Positions 2,018 through 29,808 of a stretch of DNA of 64,000 nt are shown here, piece after piece. Position 1 is the stretch's first letter; the number at the start of each line of letters is the position of its first letter. Source of the DNA: a virus; IMG/VR virus record IMGVR_UViG_3300036861_000610, positions 32,001-96,000 of that record, one strand, 5' to 3'. The notes beneath the pieces are model-generated. The model saw nothing but the letters and a program-made list of their open reading frames with translations, ran no database searches and had not been told where the DNA came from. Made by a program: the position numbers and the translations under genes.

Positions 2018-3454
2018 ATGGGGTTATCTCTCCAGGACCGCGTCGCCATGCTGCCGGCCGAGGACCGCAACGCATGGCTTGCTGAGCTGCCCGACTACCT
2101 CATCGAAGAGATGGAGCGCGGCGAATGGTGGTGGGTCTCACGCCCAGAACAGGTACCTCCGCCAGGCAACTGGTTCGTGTGCCTCGCACTCGCCGGCCGC
2201 GGCTGGGGGAAGTCTCGAAGCGGCAGTGAATGGATCGTCAACCAGGTCCTAAGGCATCCATTCGACAGCAGTGGAACCCCCACCGAGTGGCTCGTTATCG
2301 CTGAGACTCTGTCTGACGCCCGGACGATCTGCATGGAAGGTCCCGCCGGCATTCTGCGAGTACTGGAACGACGTAAAATCAAGCACCGTTACAAGATGAG
2401 TCCACGCCCTATGATCCTGTTCCCGGACGGGGCGAAGATCTACACCGAAGGGGCTGACGACCCTGACGTAGGGCGCGGATACAACTCGTCCGGCGCCTGG
2501 TTGGACGAATGCGTGAAATGGAAATACCCAAAGAAGTCTTGGTTCGAGGGCATTATGCCTTCGTTGCGGGCAGACCTTGTTGGGGATCATCCAAGGGCAT
2601 TCGTTACCACTACGCCTAAGCCAATCGATCTTCTTCAGGAGTGGCTCAAACGAGACGACGGAACCGTTCACTTAATGCGTGGTTCCACCTTTGAAAATGC
2701 GTCCAACCTGTCTCAGCTTGTTATCGACGAACTGCGTAAACGCTATGAAGGCACCGACATTGGCCGCCAAGAACTTCATGGTGAAATGATCGAAGGCTAC
2801 GAAGGTGCACTCTTCAAGCGCATTGACATCATTAACAACAGGCTGGCCGAGGCCCCAGAATTAGTCAACATCGTCGTTGGCGTTGACCCGTCACTCACTG
2901 GCGAGGACGATGAGATGGGTATTGTTGTTGTCGGTCGCGACCGCGACAACCACATGTATGTCCTTGAAGATGCTTCTCTCATGGGTGTTGGTCGTTCGGC
3001 CGCCCTGGAAGCGTGGCGTGTGGTGGCACGCTGGGGTGCCGACAAGCTTATTTGTGAGGTAAACCTCGGCAAGCGGTGGATGCAACAGGTCTTCAACGAC
3101 GCGTATTACGAACTTGTTGGTCAACAGATATTTGAGAAAAACACCAAGCCACCGCTACTCGGCATCGACACGAAGATCGGCAAAAAGACCCGCGGTGAAC
3201 CCGTGGCTATGCGCAACGAGCAGGGCAGATTGCACCACATCGGCATCTTCCCGGAGCTGGAGGACCAGATGGCTACCTTCACCAGCTGGGGAACTTCAGA
3301 TTCACCCGACCGTCTCGACGCCCTGGTCCACGCCTGCCGCTTTCTGATCGACGGAGAAAAGAAGCAAGCAAGAATCTCCTCCCCCCAGGATGTTCTTTCC
3401 ACCACACTGCAGTCGTTGCTGGCCGAGGCAGGAAGCTATCGCGCCGACTTCTAG
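2018..3454 (+). CDS. terL: terminase large subunit
   Basis: AGRGWGKS Walker A, WLDE Walker B, TTTP, VGVDPS nuclease motif, C-terminal DRLDA. Confidence 0.93.
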   Translation: MGLSLQDRVAMLPAEDRNAWLAELPDYLIEEMERGEWWWVSRPEQVPPPGNWFVCLALAGRGWGKSRSGSEWIVNQVLRHPFDSSGTPTEWLVIAETLSDARTICMEGPAGILRVLERRKIKHRYKMSPRPMILFPDGAKIYTEGADDPDVGRGYNSSGAWLDECVKWKYPKKSWFEGIMPSLRADLVGDHPRAFVTTTPKPIDLLQEWLKRDDGTVHLMRGSTFENASNLSQLVIDELRKRYEGTDIGRQELHGEMIEGYEGALFKRIDIINNRLAEAPELVNIVVGVDPSLTGEDDEMGIVVVGRDRDNHMYVLEDASLMGVGRSAALEAWRVVARWGADKLICEVNLGKRWMQQVFNDAYYELVGQQIFEKNTKPPLLGIDTKIGKKTRGEPVAMRNEQGRLHHIGIFPELEDQMATFTSWGTSDSPDRLDALVHACRFLIDGEKKQARISSPQDVLSTTLQSLLAEAGSYRADF

Positions 3455-8325: not shown

Positions 8326-9012
8326 TTACAAGAAAAAGTGGCGACGCACTTTGAGCAGCCACTCCTCAACCGGCTCCGTGTCCGGCCGCTCCGGCAGCGC
8401 CGGCTCAACCTCCTTGAAGCGGGCCTCATAGCTCAACAGCTGCTCCTCGGCCACCGTTGGATCCTGGGCCACAGCCTCTCCGAACCTGTGATACCAGGCC
8501 GGATTCTCCAGCCTGATCTGCAGCTGCGCCGTCGAGTACAGCTGAAAACCCTGATGCAGCAACCGCAGCAGATGCCGGGCATGCTTCGCAGTCCGCTTCT
8601 TCAAGTCGGACGAGAAGTTCCCCTCCCGCTTGACCAATCGATCAAACTGCTGCCGGGCATAACCCAGGTACGCGGCCTGCACCCGCGGCGCTGACAGGAA
8701 CGACCCCCGGATCTCGATGAGGTCAAGCCCCAGTGGATGCCGGAACTCGTACAGATCCTCAGGCAGCCACAACAACTCGTTGACCGTGGGGTTGCCGCTA
8801 AGCACCAGCCGACAGAACTTGGCCGCCTCGTGGAAGGTGTAATCCGACGGCTTAGTGAAGACCACCGACTCCTGCGGCTCACGCAAACCGTGCAGCATTA
8901 CCGTAGGCATCGCGTACATACCCAGCCGGTCCGTATCGGATTGCGGCGTGGACAAGCCATACGCCTGCGAGCCGACAACGCCCAACAGGAGCACAGCGCC
9001 AGGGGGATTCAT
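8326..9012 (-). CDS. RlaP-like nucleotidyltransferase (DNA pol beta superfamily)
   Basis: GSQAYGL...SDTDRLG, NPTVNELLW, KHARHLLRLL. Confidence 0.87.
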   Translation of the reverse strand: MNPPGAVLLLGVVGSQAYGLSTPQSDTDRLGMYAMPTVMLHGLREPQESVVFTKPSDYTFHEAAKFCRLVLSGNPTVNELLWLPEDLYEFRHPLGLDLIEIRGSFLSAPRVQAAYLGYARQQFDRLVKREGNFSSDLKKRTAKHARHLLRLLHQGFQLYSTAQLQIRLENPAWYHRFGEAVAQDPTVAEEQLLSYEARFKEVEPALPERPDTEPVEEWLLKVRRHFFL

Positions 9013-9023
9013 AGGCCCTCCTC

Positions 9024-9542
9024 TCAGGGACTGGGTGCGCACCAACCGTTGCCACGATTTGGTTGCTCGGTCAAGAAATTCTCGCCAGCCTCAAATGCGG
9101 CCAGCACGTCCTCGACCGGTTCGTCTTCTACGAAGAAGTCGTCATCGTCCATGACTTCGCGAAGCGGCCGGCGCCGCCCGTTGACAGCATTCTCCAGCGC
9201 CTTTTTCAGGGCGGCAACCTGCTTTGGATCCGCGTTGATTTCGTCTGTAATCCGTTGACCTTCTCCTCGGCGTAGCTCCTCCAGCTCTTCCTCGCTGTAG
9301 GTCACAGCTTCCGCAGGATTGGCCACGGAAGCCAGCTCCTTCGCCCGCGCCAACAGCGCCTCATCATCCTCGATCAGCGCCAAGCGCTGCAAAATCTCCT
9401 GGCTGTCGGCGATGACGCGTTCGGCCACCTCCCGGAACTTCTCGGCCCGCAGTTCCTCGGCATACGCCGACAGCTTCTCGATACGCGCCTGCGCCGCCTC
9501 AGTGCCGACGAAGGTGGGTTCGACTACAGGTTCTTCAGCCAT
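9024..9542 (-). CDS. acidic helical hypothetical protein
   Basis: Long ORF with consistent codon bias. Confidence 0.6.
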   Translation of the reverse strand: MAEEPVVEPTFVGTEAAQARIEKLSAYAEELRAEKFREVAERVIADSQEILQRLALIEDDEALLARAKELASVANPAEAVTYSEEELEELRRGEGQRITDEINADPKQVAALKKALENAVNGRRRPLREVMDDDDFFVEDEPVEDVLAAFEAGENFLTEQPNRGNGWCAPSP

Positions 9543-15116: not shown

Positions 15117-15119
15117 TTG

Positions 15120-15193
15120 TGCCCCGTACGGAATTCGAACCCGCGCTCACAGGGCTTTAGAGGCCCCGGCTCTGACCGCTGAGCTAACGAGAC
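15120..15193 (-). tRNA. tRNA with CTA anticodon (amber suppressor candidate)
   Basis: GGGGC-CTCTAAA-GCCCT in a full cloverleaf. Confidence 0.85.
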
Positions 15194-18822: not shown

Positions 18823-18835
18823 ATTGCTCCTTGCG

Positions 18836-18911
18836 TGGATCCGACGGGATTCGAACCCGTACCTCTGCAAACCGTTAGCTGCTTATGCTCTCGCCATTAA
18901 GCTACGGACCC
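18836..18911 (-). ncRNA. tRNA-Ala-like RNA with aberrant anticodon arm
   Basis: GGGTCCG/CGGATCC-A (G3:U70), normal D and T arms. Confidence 0.65.
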
Positions 18912-26705: not shown

Positions 26706-28316
26706 CTAGCTCGCGGTCTCCCACGGCCAGGACGCCTTCTGCCCCGCCTCGATCAACGGAACCATGCTGAACGTGTGGTCTGTTAGGCCACCCAGCTGGT
26801 GCCGAGTTGACGTGGTGTCCAACATGGCCGGCGCGTAGCCTGCCAGGTTGAAGCTGTAGACCGACGTCTCAGCCGGAACCTGAGCCCCGACATCTCCCTG
26901 CCAGTACCCACGACCCGGCCCGAAGGTCTGCTCGTCGGTCATGATGAAGACGCGGTTGTGGCCCTGGAATGTCGCCTTCAAGGCCGCCGCGGTGTGAGTG
27001 CCACCGCCGCGCACCTTGCGCTTGAACGCCTCGATGTCGCGCAGGATGCTGCCACCCTTGCTGATCTCGAACTTCCAGGGGGTGTTGTCGAAGCCGTAGA
27101 CGTCGACCTTCTCACCCTTGTGCGCCAGTGCCAGTCCAAACAAGGCGGCCTGGTCCACCACCTCGACCTGCGACTTGCCCGACATCCGACCCTTCATCGA
27201 CCCTGACGTGTCGATCAGGATCAGAGTCCGACCTGGTAGCGGCGGGATGTTCGCCGTCGAATACTGCAACGCCAGCTCCAGCGCCGACACCCACTGGGCA
27301 CCGGTTGCGGTGGCGTACGCCGACAGGAACCGGAACGGCAGCTGCCTTGACCGGGCAACCTCGTCAGGGTCGGCCAGACGCTCGTTCACCTGCTTGACAG
27401 CCGCGGCGGAGATCCCCGCCTCCTGGAAGTTGCGCAGGTTGCGCAGCAAAGCCATGTAGCCCATAACTGGGATCAAGGACTCCCACACTTCAGCTGTCAT
27501 CGCACCCCAGGACGAGGCCTGCTCCCAGGTGATGCCGGCATCCCGCAGGATTTCCTCGGAGTCGTCGCCGAGCATCAGGTCACGCTTCGCCTTGTCTGGC
27601 AGGGCCAGGATGGTGGCGCGCTTGTCCAGCACCGCCAGCTGCTGCGAGATCGGCGTCTTCGGGTCCCGACGTACGTCCAGGATGTACTTGAACAGCGCTG
27701 ACTGGGTCAAGCTGGCCGGCTCCGGGTGGGTCAGCTCGATGACATCGGCCATCCGAACCGCCTTGTCCCCGCCGTTCCACTTGATGTACGCGAACTGGTT
27801 GTACTTCGCAGTCGCACCGTCGCCGATTCCACGACGAATACCGGCCGGCAGCTGGCGCCCGTAGGTCGCCAGCCAGTAAGCCAACGCCTCAGCTGGCTCA
27901 TCGGGACGGCCGACCCAGAAGAAACTGCGGAGCAGCTGCCGCGAGTCACCAACCCGAGAACCGGGCTGGTCAGCCTTGAGCATTATCTTGGCAGCTTCGA
28001 CGGCCGCGACGACGGCCGCGGTGCGGATGTTGGCCTTGTCGCGGAGCCAGACGATGAACTCCTTGATCCATGCAGGGTCCTCGGCGGCGACGGTGCGGAC
28101 TAGAGCGGCGAAGCGCTGGTTCCGGTCGCTGGCCTTCTCGTAGAAGGTGTCCTCGCCGTAGAAGTTGGAGACAGCCAGGAGGAAGAGTTCCGACTTGGTC
28201 TCGCGGGTGTAGGCCGGCGCGCCCTCGAACGTCTTGGTGTCCTTGGCCGCAGCACGCAGTGGCGAGCCCGCATTCGGGGTGGCCGTCCTGGTGCCTCGCT
28301 TGTTGGTGGTGGCCAT
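26706..28316 (-). CDS. rsr: Ro60/TROVE-domain RNA-binding protein
   Basis: ELFLL, MALLRNLRN, SRQLPFRFLSAY, vWA DTSGSM, GGGT, TDEQ. Confidence 0.93.
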   Translation of the reverse strand: MATTNKRGTRTATPNAGSPLRAAAKDTKTFEGAPAYTRETKSELFLLAVSNFYGEDTFYEKASDRNQRFAALVRTVAAEDPAWIKEFIVWLRDKANIRTAAVVAAVEAAKIMLKADQPGSRVGDSRQLLRSFFWVGRPDEPAEALAYWLATYGRQLPAGIRRGIGDGATAKYNQFAYIKWNGGDKAVRMADVIELTHPEPASLTQSALFKYILDVRRDPKTPISQQLAVLDKRATILALPDKAKRDLMLGDDSEEILRDAGITWEQASSWGAMTAEVWESLIPVMGYMALLRNLRNFQEAGISAAAVKQVNERLADPDEVARSRQLPFRFLSAYATATGAQWVSALELALQYSTANIPPLPGRTLILIDTSGSMKGRMSGKSQVEVVDQAALFGLALAHKGEKVDVYGFDNTPWKFEISKGGSILRDIEAFKRKVRGGGTHTAAALKATFQGHNRVFIMTDEQTFGPGRGYWQGDVGAQVPAETSVYSFNLAGYAPAMLDTTSTRHQLGGLTDHTFSMVPLIEAGQKASWPWETAS

Positions 28317-28391
28317 GTCTTTACTCCTCTCCAGGCGAACAGAAACAGGGGCGGACCTCGTCAGAGAATCCGCCCCTGTCAGGAAGCTGAT

Positions 28392-28520
28392 GCTGTCAGG
28401 CGACGAGGTGACCTAAGTTCCAGGGTTATGAGCCCTGGGCCGCGCCATGCGGCTCCGCCATGGGTGGCGGAGGGAGGAATTGAACCTTCGAAGTAACTCA
28501 GGTCGAACAGATCTGACAGC
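28392..28520 (-). ncRNA. Y RNA with permuted tRNA-fMet-like module
   Basis: GCTGTCAG/CTGACAGC ends, GAGTTACTTC, T-arm, closed acceptor, CAGGG-CTCATAA-CCCTG. Confidence 0.75.
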
Positions 28521-28531
28521 GGAACTTATGG

Positions 28532-28608
28532 TGGCACAGGCAACGGGACGGTCCAAGGTATTTTTTCAGTTAGCAGTGAAGTAACCCTGAACCTTCGGAT
28601 CTGTGCCA
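28532..28608 (-). ncRNA. short Y RNA (no tRNA module)
   Basis: CAGATCCGAAG...GGGTTACTTC...GTTGCCTG. Confidence 0.8.
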
Positions 28609-28649
28609 TGCCTTGGGGCGGGCCCGAAATCCCGCAGTGAAAGGATGAA

Positions 28650-28728
28650 GCCGCCAGGCAACAAGGTGACCCAGGTGTCTTTTTAATCCCAAATGATTGA
28701 AGTAACCCAGGTCTTCGGATCTGGCGAC
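28650..28728 (-). ncRNA. short Y RNA (no tRNA module)
   Basis: CCAGATCCGAAG...GGGTTACTTC...TTGTTGCCTGG. Confidence 0.8.
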
Positions 28729-28759
28729 TCATTGTCCCCAAGCGACGGAGAGCTATGAA

Positions 28760-28894
28760 CTACCAGGCAACAATTCAGCGTGAGGTGTTTAATGTGCTGC
28801 CGTTACACCACGTCGTCACTGGTGACGACGCCAGGACTCGAACCTGGACCCCTTCTTAATCAGAGAAGTAACCCCGTACCTTCGGATCTGGTAG
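28760..28894 (-). ncRNA. YrlA-like Y RNA
   Basis: Ro stem plus T-arm CCAGG-TTCGAGT-CCTGG, closed acceptor, D arm. Confidence 0.85.
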
Positions 28895-28901
28895 AAGTTT
28901 G

Positions 28902-29046
28902 ATGCCGCCAGGCAACAAGTCGACGTGAGGTGTTTTACGCGCTCTATCCACTGAGCTATACGGACACGGTGCCCGCACCTGGGATCGAACCAGGGACCTC
29001 GTCCTTGACATGGAAGTAACCCCGGTGTCTTCGGATCTGGCGACAT
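28902..29046 (-). ncRNA. YrlA-like Y RNA
   Basis: Ro stem plus T-arm CCTGG-TTCGATC-CCAGG, closed acceptor, GCTC-AGTGGATA-GAGC D arm. Confidence 0.87.
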
Positions 29047-29129
29047 ACGTTTTTAGTTGTCAAAGGTGGTACTGGGTGCGATGCCTCCGGGCTATGGCAG
29101 CAGTCGCAAGCTCTTGTATGACCTCCAGA

Positions 29130-29158
29130 ACAGTACCCGGGGGTCCGGGTGTCGTCAA
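29130..29158 (-). promoter_or_regulatory. promoter of Y RNA-Ro60 operon
   Basis: TTGACG-17nt-TACTGT. Confidence 0.6.
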
Positions 29159-29318
29159 GGCCCTTTTTGAGGGAACCCTCCTCGCCCTGACTGGAGGGCG
29201 GTGAGGGACCTGACGTGGGCGGTGATTCATGTACCTCACCCCAACTCTTGGCAGGCCGGCACATCTCCGGACACCACGCCCGCCCACGCCAGTCCGTTCC
29301 CCCAGGAACGATGAGGCT

Positions 29319-29347
29319 AACGTACCCCCACCCAGGGGTATCGTCAA
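29319..29347 (-). promoter_or_regulatory. promoter with CCCCCACCCAGGGG spacer
   Basis: TTGACG-17nt-TACGTT. Confidence 0.55.
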
Positions 29348-29355
29348 GCTTGACC

Positions 29356-29638
29356 GTGGCGAGATGTGGCGGCGTTGGGCATGGCACGGTGTGGCAGGTG
29401 AGGTCCGGAAGGTTCCGGCTAGGTGTGGCTTGGCGGGGCAGGCAGGGCAAGGCAACGCTGGGGTGTCGTGGAGCGGCTGGGAACGGCATGGCGTGGCAGG
29501 CGGGGTGACGCTGGTAAGGCATGGCAAGGTCCGGCAGGTGTGGCTCGGCTCGGTGGTGCATGATCTGGCCAGGCTCGGCAGGCTGGGTCCGGCATGGCGC
29601 GGTGCGTCGTGACCTTGGAAGGTGCGGTACGGCAGGCG
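29356..29638. repeat. degenerate pentamer (GGYNN) tandem array
   Basis: ggcat ggcac ggtgt ggca ggtga ggtcc ...; strong G skew. Confidence 0.75.
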
Positions 29639-29644
29639 AACGAT

Positions 29645-29692
29645 AAAAAGCCCCTGGTTTCAGTGAAATTTGGCTGAATCCAGGGGCTTTTT
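29645..29692. terminator. bidirectional intrinsic terminator
   Basis: AAAAAGCCCCTGG...CCAGGGGCTTTTT. Confidence 0.85.
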
Positions 29693-29808
29693 GTGTTCCC
29701 GGAACGCCACCCCCACATAGGGGTTCAAGAATGCGTATTCACATCCCCACGTAGGGGCACGCATTTTCGCCGCGAGCAGTTCTATCCTTATTCCCACCCC
29801 TTGCCATT

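What the first reader, a model, noticed from the sequence alone, without database searches (positions are those of the whole stretch)
28392..28520. Y RNA displaying an intact initiator-tRNA anticodon arm
Seen: after the T-arm, closed acceptor and D-like hairpin comes CCAGGG-CTCATAA-CCCTGG, the fMet CAU loop with three G-C pairs. The Ro stem joins at the variable-loop position instead of replacing the anticodon arm as in YrlA. Established: several VapC toxins cut tRNA-fMet at this arm. Inference: a non-chargeable, Ro-tethered decoy or sensor for fMet-specific nucleases, or a P-site mimic.
Basis: partly seen in the sequence, partly recalled or inferred. Interest (0 to 1): 0.75.

Follow-up and report, generated by a model that had tools for sequence, protein, structure and literature searches.

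The report
Phage Y RNA carrying tRNA-Met anticodon arm
Next to a phage Ro60 gene lies a small RNA that is a complete but circularly rearranged methionine tRNA, anticodon arm included; the same design recurs in at least three other phage lineages, which gives a first sequence-specific clue to what these tRNA-mimicking Y RNAs bind.

Summary
On the minus strand, 28520-28392 folds (dG -58.7, z -5.6) into a two-part closing stem, T arm, closed 7-bp acceptor, mini D hairpin and the arm CCAGGG-CUCAUAA-CCCUGG. It is the fifth of five Y-RNA modules upstream of a TROVE/Ro60 gene. Removing the closing stem and opening the acceptor loop gives a sequence ARAGORN calls tRNA-Met(CAU).

The arm is not a one-off. 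The same module type occurs in about 16 phage lineages, and seven carry a hairpin at this position. All five of its pairs covary. The loop is exactly CUCAUAA in four lineages (Ro60 only 36-42% identical); others read GAA or Val-like.

- The three G-C pairs occur only in this window, so the shared identity is Met/CAU, not specifically initiator.
- The closest relative (Ro60 74%) and all cultured phages checked lack the arm, so it is dispensable.
- "Non-chargeable" is unsafe. M. smegmatis YrlA is opened by RNase P and gains CCA, and these modules share a 7-bp stem, U(-1) and N73-C74-Y75.

Best reading: a new YrlA-like variant, a full permuted tRNA-Met mimic whose CAU loop is probably read by a tRNA-Met-specific factor. 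The function is untested.

The parts
28392..28520 (-). Whole Y-E module (129 nt). It is a type-E Y RNA, that is, a circularly permuted tRNA-Met mimic closed by a Ro-type stem.
   Evidence: MFE fold z = -5.55. CM R1 scores it at 144 bits. The un-permuted construct is called tRNA-Met(cat).
28513..28520 (-). Lower closing stem, 5' strand (GCUGUCAG). It pairs with 28392-28399.
   Evidence: helix 1 has 7 of 8 pairs changed on both sides and is 100% paired.
28495..28504 (-). Upper stem, 5' strand (GACCUGAGUU). It pairs with 28410-28419.
   Evidence: helix 2 has 8 of 10 pairs changed on both sides.
28490..28496 (-). UUACUUC. This is the conserved YUACUUC motif (the YUAY of YrlA). It links the stem to the T arm and stands where the 3' part of a variable loop would be.
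   Evidence: The motif is present in 76 of 80 Ro60 loci. YUAY is described in PMC4201824.
28473..28489 (-). T arm GAAGG-UUCAAUU-CCUCC.
   Evidence: helix 3. It is identical in L003, Phabba, L005 and L010.
28453..28472 (-). Acceptor stem, 7 bp, closed by the loop A-CC-CAU. The inferred RNase P site lies between 28460 (U-1) and 28459 (G+1).
   Evidence: helix 4, 7 of 7 pairs covary. Loop consensus comes from the alignment. The RNase P and CCA precedent is in PMC4201824.
28440..28452 (-). Mini D hairpin CCGC-AUGGC-GCGG. The GG is retained, but there is no U8/A9 linker.
   Evidence: helix 5. The AUGGC loop is shared by all four CAU-bearing members, and by Phabba, L188 and the odd tRNA-Met in L316.
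28420..28438 (-). Anticodon arm CCAGGG-CUCAUAA-CCCUGG. CAU lies at 28428-28430.
   Evidence: (helix 6: 5 of 5 pairs changed on both sides, 100% paired).
28346..28378 (-). GC-rich hairpin followed by a U-rich tract, between Y-E and the Ro60 start codon. It may be a terminator, attenuator or processing element.
   Evidence: Read. It is conserved in L003, L141 and L143. The simple terminator scan did not call it.
26706..28316 (-). Ro60/TROVE gene, 536 aa.
   Evidence: Pfam TROVE 1.9e-22, plus VWA domains. It is 74% identical to the Ro60 of L003.
28530..29043 (-). Four further Y-RNA modules: Y-D 28530-28607, Y-C 28648-28727, Y-B 28760-28892 and Y-A 28908-29043. They share CAGAUCCGAAG...GGGUUACUUC at the 5' side and UUGUUGCCUGG at the 3' side.
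   Evidence: Rfam YrlA gives weak hits to Y-A (26 bits) and Y-B (21 bits). The array is syntenic in L003.

Best explanation
Y-E is the Ro60-proximal member of a five-unit phage Y-RNA array. It belongs to a distinct YrlA-like subfamily, here called type E.

Type E is defined by these features:
- The YUACUUC motif runs straight into the T arm, with no V arm.
- The acceptor stem is 7 bp and closed by a loop.
- The D arm is reduced to a 4-5 bp hairpin with the loop AUGGC.

In this window, and in at least three other phage lineages, a fourth hairpin follows the D hairpin. It has a 5-6 bp stem and the invariant loop CUCAUAA. With it, the effector domain becomes a complete, circularly permuted tRNA-Met. 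The Ro-type stem then emerges where a class-II tRNA carries its long variable arm.

Shown:
- the sequence, the fold and the covariation of every helix;
- the recurrence of the CAU loop;
- the position next to a TROVE gene;
- absence of the arm in the sister phage.

Inferred mechanism: the arm gives the Ro60-Y RNP tRNA-Met anticodon identity, so that a factor reading the CAU loop is bound. That factor could be an anticodon-directed nuclease, MetRS or an anticodon-loop modification enzyme. The most likely role is a decoy or sensor that protects or monitors the tRNA-Met pool during infection. This fits a genome island holding about 51 tRNA genes and an RlaP-type RNA-repair nucleotidyltransferase.

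The shared identity is Met/CAU, not specifically initiator. The acceptor loop is probably opened by RNase P in vivo.
For: Structure:
- The fold has z = -5.55.
- ARAGORN calls the un-permuted forms tRNA-Met for the window, L159, L201 and G007. It calls Phe for L143 and Val for L188 and L193. It calls nothing for the arm-less L003 and L141.

Family:
- CM R1 recovers type-E modules in 14 or more loci at E < 1e-9. It also recovers G007/L270 at 77 bits.

Covariation (alignment A7):
- 96.6% of cells are paired, against 64.7% when shuffled. 34 of 39 pairs change on both sides.
- In the arm helix, 5 of 5 pairs change on both sides and 100% of cells are paired. Slid-partner controls give about 35-52% paired.
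- RNAalifold predicts the same arm independently.

Loop conservation:
- The loop is CUCAUAA over four different stems: CAGGG/CCCUG, UUGGC/GCCAA, CCCGA/UCGGG and UGGGA/UCCCA.
- Their Ro60 proteins are only 36-42% identical.
- On the Ro60 tree, the window on one side and L159/L201 on the other fall in different clades.

Context:
- In G007 the module again lies about 100 nt upstream of Ro60.
- The window holds a TROVE gene, 51 tRNA genes and RlaP, PF10127.

Literature:
- YrlA effector domains are tRNA mimics with an unknown effector, expected to be a tRNA-binding protein (bioRxiv 10.1101/312249).
- VapC toxins cut tRNA-fMet in the anticodon stem-loop (PMC4705866).
Against: - There are no expression, Ro60-binding or processing data for any member.
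- The arm is dispensable. It is absent from the sister phage L003, from L141/142/144, L168, Phabba, Mandalore, GiJojo and pSt2308, and from L005 and L010.
- In L188, sister to L201, the loop has drifted to AUAACCU. The CAU loop is therefore not always maintained.
- Loop invariance is partly due to how members were found. L159 and L201 first surfaced in a scan for CAU hairpins. G007 came from a CTCATAA pattern.
- In the loop-blind CM search, 3 of 6 arm-bearing lineages have CAU.
- The pair counts come from an alignment fitted to the model.
- The D hairpin lacks U8, A9, A14 and R15, so a true L-shape is unproven.
- The Ro-binding motif of Y-E (AGAUCUGUUCG) departs from that of its four neighbours (AGAUCCGAAG).
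Confidence: 0.5

Rival explanations
1. The arm is an evolutionary leftover with no loop-specific function. Type-E modules descend from a tRNA dimer whose second member was a mini-D-arm tRNA-Met. On this view the arm is simply what has not yet been deleted, or it is refreshed by gene conversion from resident tRNA-Met genes.
For: - YrlA RNAs have been proposed to originate from dimeric tRNA transcripts (bioRxiv 10.1101/312249).
- L316 holds a non-permuted tRNA-Met-like gene with the same UCAC-AUGGC-GUGA mini D hairpin and a CUCAUAA arm.
- The arm has been lost in many lineages, including the sister phage.
- The loop has drifted in L188.
- The window arm matches the phage's second CAU tRNA at 16 of 17 positions. 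The L159 arm matches its resident tRNA-Met at 14 of 17.
Against: - The seven loop bases are identical in four lineages whose Ro60 proteins are only 36-42% identical, while every stem pair except 30:40 has turned over. An unconstrained loop should have diverged.
- The L201 arm does not resemble the only tRNA-Met of its phage.
- No mini-D tRNA-Met gene exists in the window's genome.
Confidence: 0.2
2. Y-E is an initiator-specific (fMet), non-chargeable, Ro-tethered decoy or sensor for tRNA-fMet-cleaving VapC toxins, or a mimic of the 30S P-site ligand.
For: - The window arm has the three G-C pairs.
- Its acceptor positions 2-5 (GCGG) match initiator tRNAs.
- VapC cleavage of tRNA-fMet is established (PMC4705866).
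Against: - The three G-C pairs are not shared by L159, L201 or G007.
- G1-C72 is paired, unlike bacterial initiators.
- The sister phage lacks the arm.
- A permanently closed acceptor is doubtful (PMC4201824).
- The host is unknown. Terminase identity to any cultured phage is at most 41%. No cognate nuclease can therefore be named.
Confidence: 0.1
3. Y-E matures into a two-piece tRNA that can be aminoacylated. RNase P would cut at U61|G62. The 5' piece would be trimmed and completed to ACCA. MetRS could then charge the nicked, Ro60-bound tRNA-Met mimic.
For: - M. smegmatis YrlA is cut by RNase P in vivo and in vitro, and its 5' half gains CA to make CCA. This was attributed to its 7-bp acceptor (PMC4201824).
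- Type-E modules keep a roughly 7-bp acceptor, U(-1), C74 and Y75. Most also keep A73 and G+1. G007 even encodes GCCA.
- The CAU anticodon is the dominant MetRS identity element (my own knowledge).
Against: - There are no data on processing or charging.
- The D arm is severely reduced.
- The discriminator varies (A, U, G).
- Arm-less members keep the same acceptor features, so those features do not depend on the anticodon arm.
Confidence: 0.08
4. Y-E is a permuted tRNA-Met gene. The closing stem would be excised and the ends ligated to yield an ordinary 73-nt tRNA, as happens with permuted tRNA genes of some algae.
For: - The un-permuted sequence is a credible tRNA-Met for ARAGORN.
- Permuted tRNA genes are raised as a comparison in bioRxiv 10.1101/312249.
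Against: - The closing stem carries motifs shared with four neighbouring non-tRNA Y modules, and with modules in 76 of 80 Ro60 loci.
- No bulge-helix-bulge motif is evident, and no bacterial machinery for this route is known (my own knowledge).
- The phage already has two CAU tRNAs.
Confidence: 0.03

Closest known systems
YrlA (Rfam RF02553), the tRNA-like bacterial and phage Y RNAs (Chen et al. 2014, PMC4201824; YrlA crystal structure, bioRxiv 10.1101/312249)
   Same: - It is encoded next to Ro60.
- The element order is closing stem, YUAY motif, T arm, closed acceptor-like stem, D arm, closing stem.
- The T loop and the D-loop GG are retained.
- The 7-bp acceptor matches M. smegmatis YrlA, which is an RNase P substrate.
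   Different: - YrlA 'lacks the anticodon loop', and its Ro-binding stem stands in for the anticodon stem. Here a separate CAU arm follows the D hairpin, and the stem takes the variable-arm position.
- There is no V arm.
- The D arm is reduced to a 13-15 nt hairpin with no U8/A9.
- The Rfam model gives no hit to Y-E even at E <= 10.
D. radiodurans Yrn1
   Same: It has been modelled with a possible 'anticodon arm' with a 5-bp stem (PMC4201824).
   Different: - Its loop is 6 nt and has no anticodon-loop sequence.
- The orientation of its T and D elements differs.
- It was judged to have evolved independently of YrlA (PMC4201824).
Type-B modules of the same arrays (window Y-A and Y-B, and most actinophage Ro60 loci). 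Their hairpin 5' of the T arm is the 'V arm' of Chen et al.
   Same: The closing-stem motifs are the same. The hairpin likewise has a 5-bp stem and a 7-nt loop with anticodon-loop consensus C32 U33 ... A37 A38. One such module, in L148, even reads CUCAUAA.
   Different: The hairpin sits on the other side of the tRNA core, before the variable loop and T arm. The D arm is canonical. The commonest loop is CUGUUAA, not CAU.
Class-II tRNAs and permuted tRNA genes
   Same: It forms a five-way junction with a long helix at the variable position. The 3' half is encoded before the 5' half.
   Different: The 'variable arm' here is open-ended and carries Ro-type motifs. The acceptor is closed in the primary transcript. 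No splicing-type junction is present.
Atypical tRNA-Met-like gene in L316 (IMGVR_UViG_3300043419_002111)
   Same: It has the same mini D hairpin (4 bp, loop AUGGC) followed by a CUCAUAA arm.
   Different: It has normal tRNA order, with its own T arm and ACCA end. It lies in a tRNA array on a contig (26% complete) where no TROVE gene was found. ARAGORN does not call it.

Membership tests
Y RNA / YrlA-like (functional class) | Encoded adjacent to, and on the same strand as, a Ro60/TROVE gene | tested here: met
   Y-E ends 76 nt upstream of the TROVE ORF at 26706-28316 (-). The arrangement is the same in L003, L159, L201 and G007.
Y RNA / YrlA-like (functional class) | Bound by Ro60 | not testable with these tools
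   This is inferred only from position and from closing-stem motifs shared with the neighbouring modules.
Y RNA / YrlA-like (functional class) | 5' Ro-recognition motif GNCGAAN0-1G / GGUCCGA-like (PMC4201824) | tested here: inconclusive
   Y-A to Y-D carry AGAUCCGAAG. Y-E and its L003 orthologue carry AGAUCUGUUCG instead. Y-E has UUCGAAGG next to its T arm.
YrlA (Rfam RF02553) | Score at or above the family gathering threshold (69 bits) | tested here: not met
   There is no hit to Y-E at E <= 10. Y-A scores 26 bits and Y-B 21 bits.
YrlA (Rfam RF02553) | T arm, closed acceptor-like stem and D arm, in that order, inside a closing stem, with the YUAY motif | tested here: met
   The D arm is strongly reduced.
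YrlA (Rfam RF02553) | Ro-binding stem continuous with the anticodon-stem position, and no anticodon loop | tested here: not met
   A separate CAU hairpin lies between the D hairpin and the 3' strand of the closing stem. This is the feature that sets the variant apart.
tRNA-Met (functional tRNA) | Cloverleaf with a CAU anticodon loop | tested here: met
   It is met only after in-silico un-permutation, when ARAGORN calls tRNA-Met(cat). The native sequence is not called.
tRNA-Met (functional tRNA) | Free 5' end and 3' CCA end; aminoacylation | not testable with these tools
   The acceptor is closed in the gene. An opening by RNase P is inferred from the M. smegmatis precedent (PMC4201824) and from the conserved U(-1) and C74.
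Bacterial initiator tRNA | Three consecutive G-C pairs, 29-31:39-41 | tested here: met
   They are present in the window but in none of the other three CAU-bearing relatives.
Bacterial initiator tRNA | Mismatch at 1:72 | tested here: not met
   G62-C55 gives a G1-C72 Watson-Crick pair.

The most novel reading that the evidence does not exclude
[quoted passage not shown] More broadly, phage Y-RNA arrays may act as an anticodon-display panel. Type-E arms read CAU, GAA and Val-like anticodons. V arms read GUU, GCU, GAU and UGU. Such a panel could couple Ro60 to specific tRNA-reading enzymes or nucleases.
Probability: 0.08. Interest if true: 0.9.

Novelty: new variant of a known kind. Interest (0 to 1): 0.66.

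Why it matters
YrlA-type Y RNAs are known tRNA mimics, but their effector is unknown. Published descriptions stress that they lack an anticodon loop.

This subfamily carries a bona fide CAU anticodon arm. The arm covaries, and it recurs in phages whose Ro60 proteins are only 36-42% identical.

That matters in three ways:
1. It narrows the search for the effector to factors that read the tRNA-Met anticodon loop. Candidates are anticodon nucleases, MetRS, and t6A or C34-modifying enzymes.
2. It supplies natural plus-arm and minus-arm pairs for experiments, namely the window against L003.
3. It gives concrete intermediates for the proposed origin of Y RNAs from tRNA dimers.

It also bears on how tRNA-rich phages cope with host attack on tRNAs.

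Tried and rejected
- **Rfam.** Gathering and E <= 10 scans give no family for Y-E.
- **blastn against cultured phages.**
  - With the window array: only a 54-nt match to Mycobacterium phage Phabba, which is arm-less.
  - With the L201 module: no match.
  - With the L159 module: only Mandalore, which is arm-less.
- **Exact T-arm pattern scans.**
  - IMG/VR: few relatives, namely L005, plus Phabba and L003, which were already known.
  - Metagenomes: L010, plus the contig of L005 again (L008).
  - GTDB genomes: two hits, in Bacteroides and Rickettsia genomes. I did not inspect them and assumed they are ordinary tRNAs.
  - All relatives found are arm-less. The other hits were an ordinary tRNA or coding sequence.
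- **Exact 19-nt arm in IMG/VR.** One hit, L013, in a phage with no TROVE gene found. It is a poorly structured spacer between tRNA genes (z = -1.6) and not a Y RNA.
- **Pattern 'T loop, 22-45 nt, then GGGCUCAUAACCC'.** All were tight tRNA-X/tRNA-Met tandems, or odd tRNAs in normal element order. None was permuted.
- **Pattern 'T loop, CAUGGCG, CUCAUAA'.** It added only the L316 odd tRNA. The other ten hits were chance.
- **MAFFT on the modules or arms.** It mis-registers the arm helix, so I used a covariance-model alignment instead.
- **Simple promoter and terminator scan of 28200-29800.** It found nothing.
- **Supplement of Chen et al. 2014 and the Sim et al. 2020 review.** Neither is held.
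- **Chance origin of the arm.** Rejected on the basis.

Full report
**Setting**

The window is bases 32001-96000 of a 147.9-kb IMG/VR virus record rated 100% complete.
- Its minus strand carries about 51 tRNA genes between 1142 and 25153.
- A 536-aa ORF at 26706-28316 (-) is a Ro60 homologue: Pfam TROVE 1.9e-22, plus vWA domains.
- An RlaP-type RNA-repair nucleotidyltransferase (PF10127) lies at 8326-9045 (-).
- The terminase is at most 41% identical to that of any cultured phage, so the host is unknown. The Ro60 groups with Streptomyces and Gordonia phage proteins at 36-42% identity.

Five tandem modules lie upstream of Ro60 on the same strand, between 29043 and 28392. They share CAGAUCCGAAG...GGGUUACUUC on the 5' side and UUGUUGCCUGG on the 3' side. 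In my reading this closely resembles the conserved Ro-binding region of vertebrate Y RNAs. Chen et al. relate the bacterial GNCGAA motif to the GGUCCGA contacted by Xenopus Ro60 (PMC4201824). The finding is the fifth module, the one nearest Ro60, here called Y-E.

**Checking the observation**

Read on the minus strand, 28520-28392 contains these elements in order:
1. an 8-bp lower stem;
2. an internal loop;
3. a 10-bp upper stem;
4. UUACUUC;
5. a T arm, GAAGG-UUCAAUU-CCUCC;
6. a 7-bp acceptor closed by the loop ACCCAU;
7. a small hairpin, CCGC-AUGGC-GCGG;
8. the arm CCAGGG-CUCAUAA-CCCUGG, followed by the return strands of the two stems.

- RNAfold gives this five-way junction as both MFE and centroid: -58.7 kcal/mol, z = -5.55, and 0 of 200 shuffles fold as well.
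- The 13-mer GGGCUCAUAACCC is expected 0.06 times in the window. Apart from Y-E it occurs only in the phage's two CAU tRNA genes.
- I deleted the closing stem, opened the acceptor loop and added CCA. ARAGORN then called the 73-nt product tRNA-Met(cat) at default settings.

**Is the arm conserved?**

The first results said no.
- The closest relative, L003 (Ro60 74% identical), has the same five-module array. In its Y-E orthologue the D hairpin runs straight into the stem, a difference of about 20 nt.
- The only cultured-phage match was Mycobacterium phage Phabba. It shares the T arm, acceptor and D hairpin at 92% identity and also lacks the arm.

I then collected 80 Ro60 loci from IMG/VR using a Ro60 alignment.
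- A scan for CAU hairpins outside ARAGORN tRNAs found modules of the same design in L159 and in L201 (L200 is identical).
- The design is T arm, 7-bp closed acceptor, hairpin with loop AUGGC, then a CUCAUAA arm.
- A pattern scan of all IMG/VR, filtered with a covariance model, added a fourth lineage: G007/L270, a 116.6-kb record of lower G+C. Its module sits about 100 nt upstream of its Ro60.

The four stems are CAGGG/CCCUG, UUGGC/GCCAA, CCCGA/UCGGG and UGGGA/UCCCA. The seven loop bases and the AUGGC D loop are identical in all four. Their Ro60 proteins are 36-42% identical.

**The family**

A covariance model, R1, was built from the window and L201 with the hand-drawn structure. It recovers this 'type E' module in the following loci:

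| Hairpin at this position | Lineages |
|---|---|
| CAU loop (CUCAUAA) | window; L159; L200/L201; G007 |
| Loop UUGAAAC (GAA; 6 of 7 bases match that phage's own tRNA-Phe loop) | L143/L145/L194 |
| Loop AUAACCU | L188 |
| Loop UUCACCU | L193 |
| No arm | L003; L141/142/144; L168; Phabba; Mandalore; GiJojo; pSt2308 |
| No CAU arm | L005; L010 (weak R1 hits, 26-27 bits; L010 carries only a GUAA-tetraloop hairpin there) |

Covariation on the model-guided alignment of the seven arm-bearing lineages:
- 96.6% of cells pair, against 64.7% after shuffling.
- 34 of 39 pairs change on both sides.
- In the arm helix all five pairs change on both sides, with no unpaired cell.
- Sliding the partners by 1-3 columns drops pairing to 34-52%.
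- RNAalifold, predicting on its own, returns the same arm.

After un-permutation, ARAGORN calls Met four times, Phe once and Val twice. It calls nothing for the arm-less L003 and L141.

**Caveats**

- The alignment is fitted to the model.
- The number of lineages is small.
- The CAU members were partly found by searching for CAU. In the loop-blind CM search of Ro60 loci, three of six arm-bearing lineages have CUCAUAA.

**Phylogenetic pattern**

On a Ro60 tree the window pairs with L003 (support 100/99). Both sit in a clade (98/100) with L141, L146 and the GAA group. L159, L201 and L188 form another group (82/78).

CAU arms therefore occur in at least two separate clades, plus G007, which was not placed on the tree. 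The D-loop sequence is shared across them. I read this as an old feature that has been lost repeatedly (L003, L141 and others) and has occasionally drifted (L188). Repeated acquisition from tRNA-Met genes cannot be excluded:
- The window arm matches the phage's second CAU tRNA at 16 of 17 positions.
- The L159 arm matches its resident tRNA-Met at 14 of 17.
- The L201 arm does not resemble its phage's only tRNA-Met.

One contig, L316, carries a normally ordered tRNA-Met-like gene with the same mini D hairpin (UCAC-AUGGC-GUGA) and a CUCAUAA arm. This is the kind of 'second tRNA' that the dimeric-tRNA origin model for YrlA needs (bioRxiv 10.1101/312249).

1. *Initiator identity.* The three G-C pairs are unique to the window. 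G1-C72 is paired, unlike bacterial initiators. The shared identity is the loop common to initiator tRNA-Met, elongator tRNA-Met and tRNA-Ile2.
2. *Chargeability.* Chen et al. showed the following for M. smegmatis YrlA (PMC4201824):
   - It was the only YrlA they studied with a 7-bp acceptor.
   - It is found in vivo mainly as two halves produced by RNase P, with CA added to give CCA.
   - M1 RNA cuts it in vitro.

   In the 13 aligned type-E sequences the acceptor is about 7 bp (interrupted by a bulge in L003). The base before +1 is always U. Position 74 is always C and position 75 a pyrimidine. Position 73 is mostly A. G007 encodes GCCA outright. A permanently closed acceptor should not be assumed.
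3. *Dispensability.* The sister phage and all nine cultured actinophages I examined lack the arm.
4. *Function.* A decoy, sensor or P-site role remains inference. The background fact that VapC toxins cut tRNA-fMet in the anticodon stem-loop is correct (PMC4705866).

**Most likely mechanism**

*Shown:* a structured, covarying RNA module next to Ro60 that is a full permuted tRNA-Met, with an invariant CAU loop in four diverged lineages.

*Inferred:*
- It binds Ro60 through the closing stem, like its neighbours.
- The tRNA body is presented to tRNA-binding proteins, as proposed for YrlA.
- The arm adds anticodon identity, so that a CAU-reading factor is engaged.

The genome island holds a tRNA supply and an RlaP repair protein, and tRNA-directed nucleases are known. 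I therefore favour a decoy or sensor for attack on tRNA-Met. Recruitment of MetRS or an anticodon-loop modification enzyme comes next. I put about 0.5 on the combined statement. The structural part is well above that, and any one functional version is well below it.

The rivals are a functionless relic (0.2), the strict fMet/VapC/P-site version (0.1), a chargeable nicked tRNA (0.08) and a permuted tRNA gene matured to a normal tRNA (0.03).

**Relation to known families**

The module works like YrlA and shares its layout, but it fails two membership tests:
- The Rfam model does not score it.
- YrlA's defining substitution of the anticodon arm by the Ro stem is not met.

The papers I could read state that YrlA lacks the anticodon loop. 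They mention an 'anticodon arm' only as a loose model for D. radiodurans Yrn1, with a 6-nt loop (PMC4201824; 10.1101/312249). Searches of the held library found no report of an anticodon-bearing Y RNA. I class it as a new variant of a known kind.

Noticed in passing
Window Y-B 28760-28892 (-) and Y-A 28908-29043 (-); about 60 modules in L003 and L141-L219: The hairpin 5' of the T arm in most actinophage Y RNAs is the 'less-conserved V arm' of Chen et al. 2014. It is a 5-bp stem with a 7-nt loop, usually followed by a 4-5 nt AGGUC-like linker. That is the position and shape of an anticodon arm. Among 62 distinct parsed hairpins (three or four are real tRNAs, and a few are mis-registered by 1 nt), the loop consensus is C32 (48/62), U33 (53/62), A37 (42/62), A38 (52/62). 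The commonest loops are CUGUUAA (15 times), CUGCUAA (6) and CUUGUAA (3). The stem covaries: CUUCU/AGAAG in the window against CUUCA/UGAAG in L003.
   Followed up: partly
L148:2470-2610 (+): A type-B Y RNA whose V-arm hairpin reads UUCUC-CUCAUAA-GAGGG. A CAU loop therefore also occurs at the other position, before the variable loop and T arm.
   Followed up: partly
L316:4905-4975 (-): A normally ordered tRNA-Met-like gene with a reduced D arm (UCAC-AUGGC-GUGA), a CUCAUAA arm, a T arm and an ACCA end. It sits in a 24-tRNA phage array on a contig (26% complete) where no TROVE gene was found. ARAGORN does not call it. It may be the ancestral type of the 3' half of type-E Y RNAs.
   Followed up: partly
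L013:4296-4396 (-): A spacer between tRNA-Asn and tRNA-Met in a phage with no TROVE gene found. It contains the identical 19-nt arm CCAGGG-CUCAUAA-CCCUGG but no recognisable tRNA or Y-RNA frame (fold z = -1.6). It may be a decayed tRNA-fMet.
   Followed up: partly
Window 28346-28378 (-): A GC-rich hairpin with a 13-nt loop and a U-rich tail, between Y-E and the Ro60 start codon. A counterpart occurs in L003, L141 and L143. It could be a terminator, an attenuator or a processing signal separating the Y-RNA array from the Ro60 mRNA.
   Followed up: no
L001 (Phabba) 2967-3081 (-), and Phabba Ro60 at 131010-131906: In Mycobacterium phage Phabba the type-E module is unannotated. It lies inside the tRNA array directly after a tRNA-Met gene, about 40 kb from the TROVE gene. 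Streptomyces phages GiJojo, pSt2308 and Mandalore also carry unannotated type-E modules.
   Followed up: partly
Window 15119-15193 (-) and 18835-18911 (-): ARAGORN calls a CUA-anticodon tRNA (labelled Pyl, so a possible amber suppressor) and a tRNA with a 4-base anticodon CUAA. L143 also has a CUA tRNA.
   Followed up: no
L066, L068/L085, L079, L100, L101: Several IMG/VR phages carry CAU tRNA-like genes with an intact GGGCUCAUAACCC arm but aberrant T arms. ARAGORN misses them.
   Followed up: no
Window 35831-55882 (+): A single open reading frame of 6683 aa.
   Followed up: no
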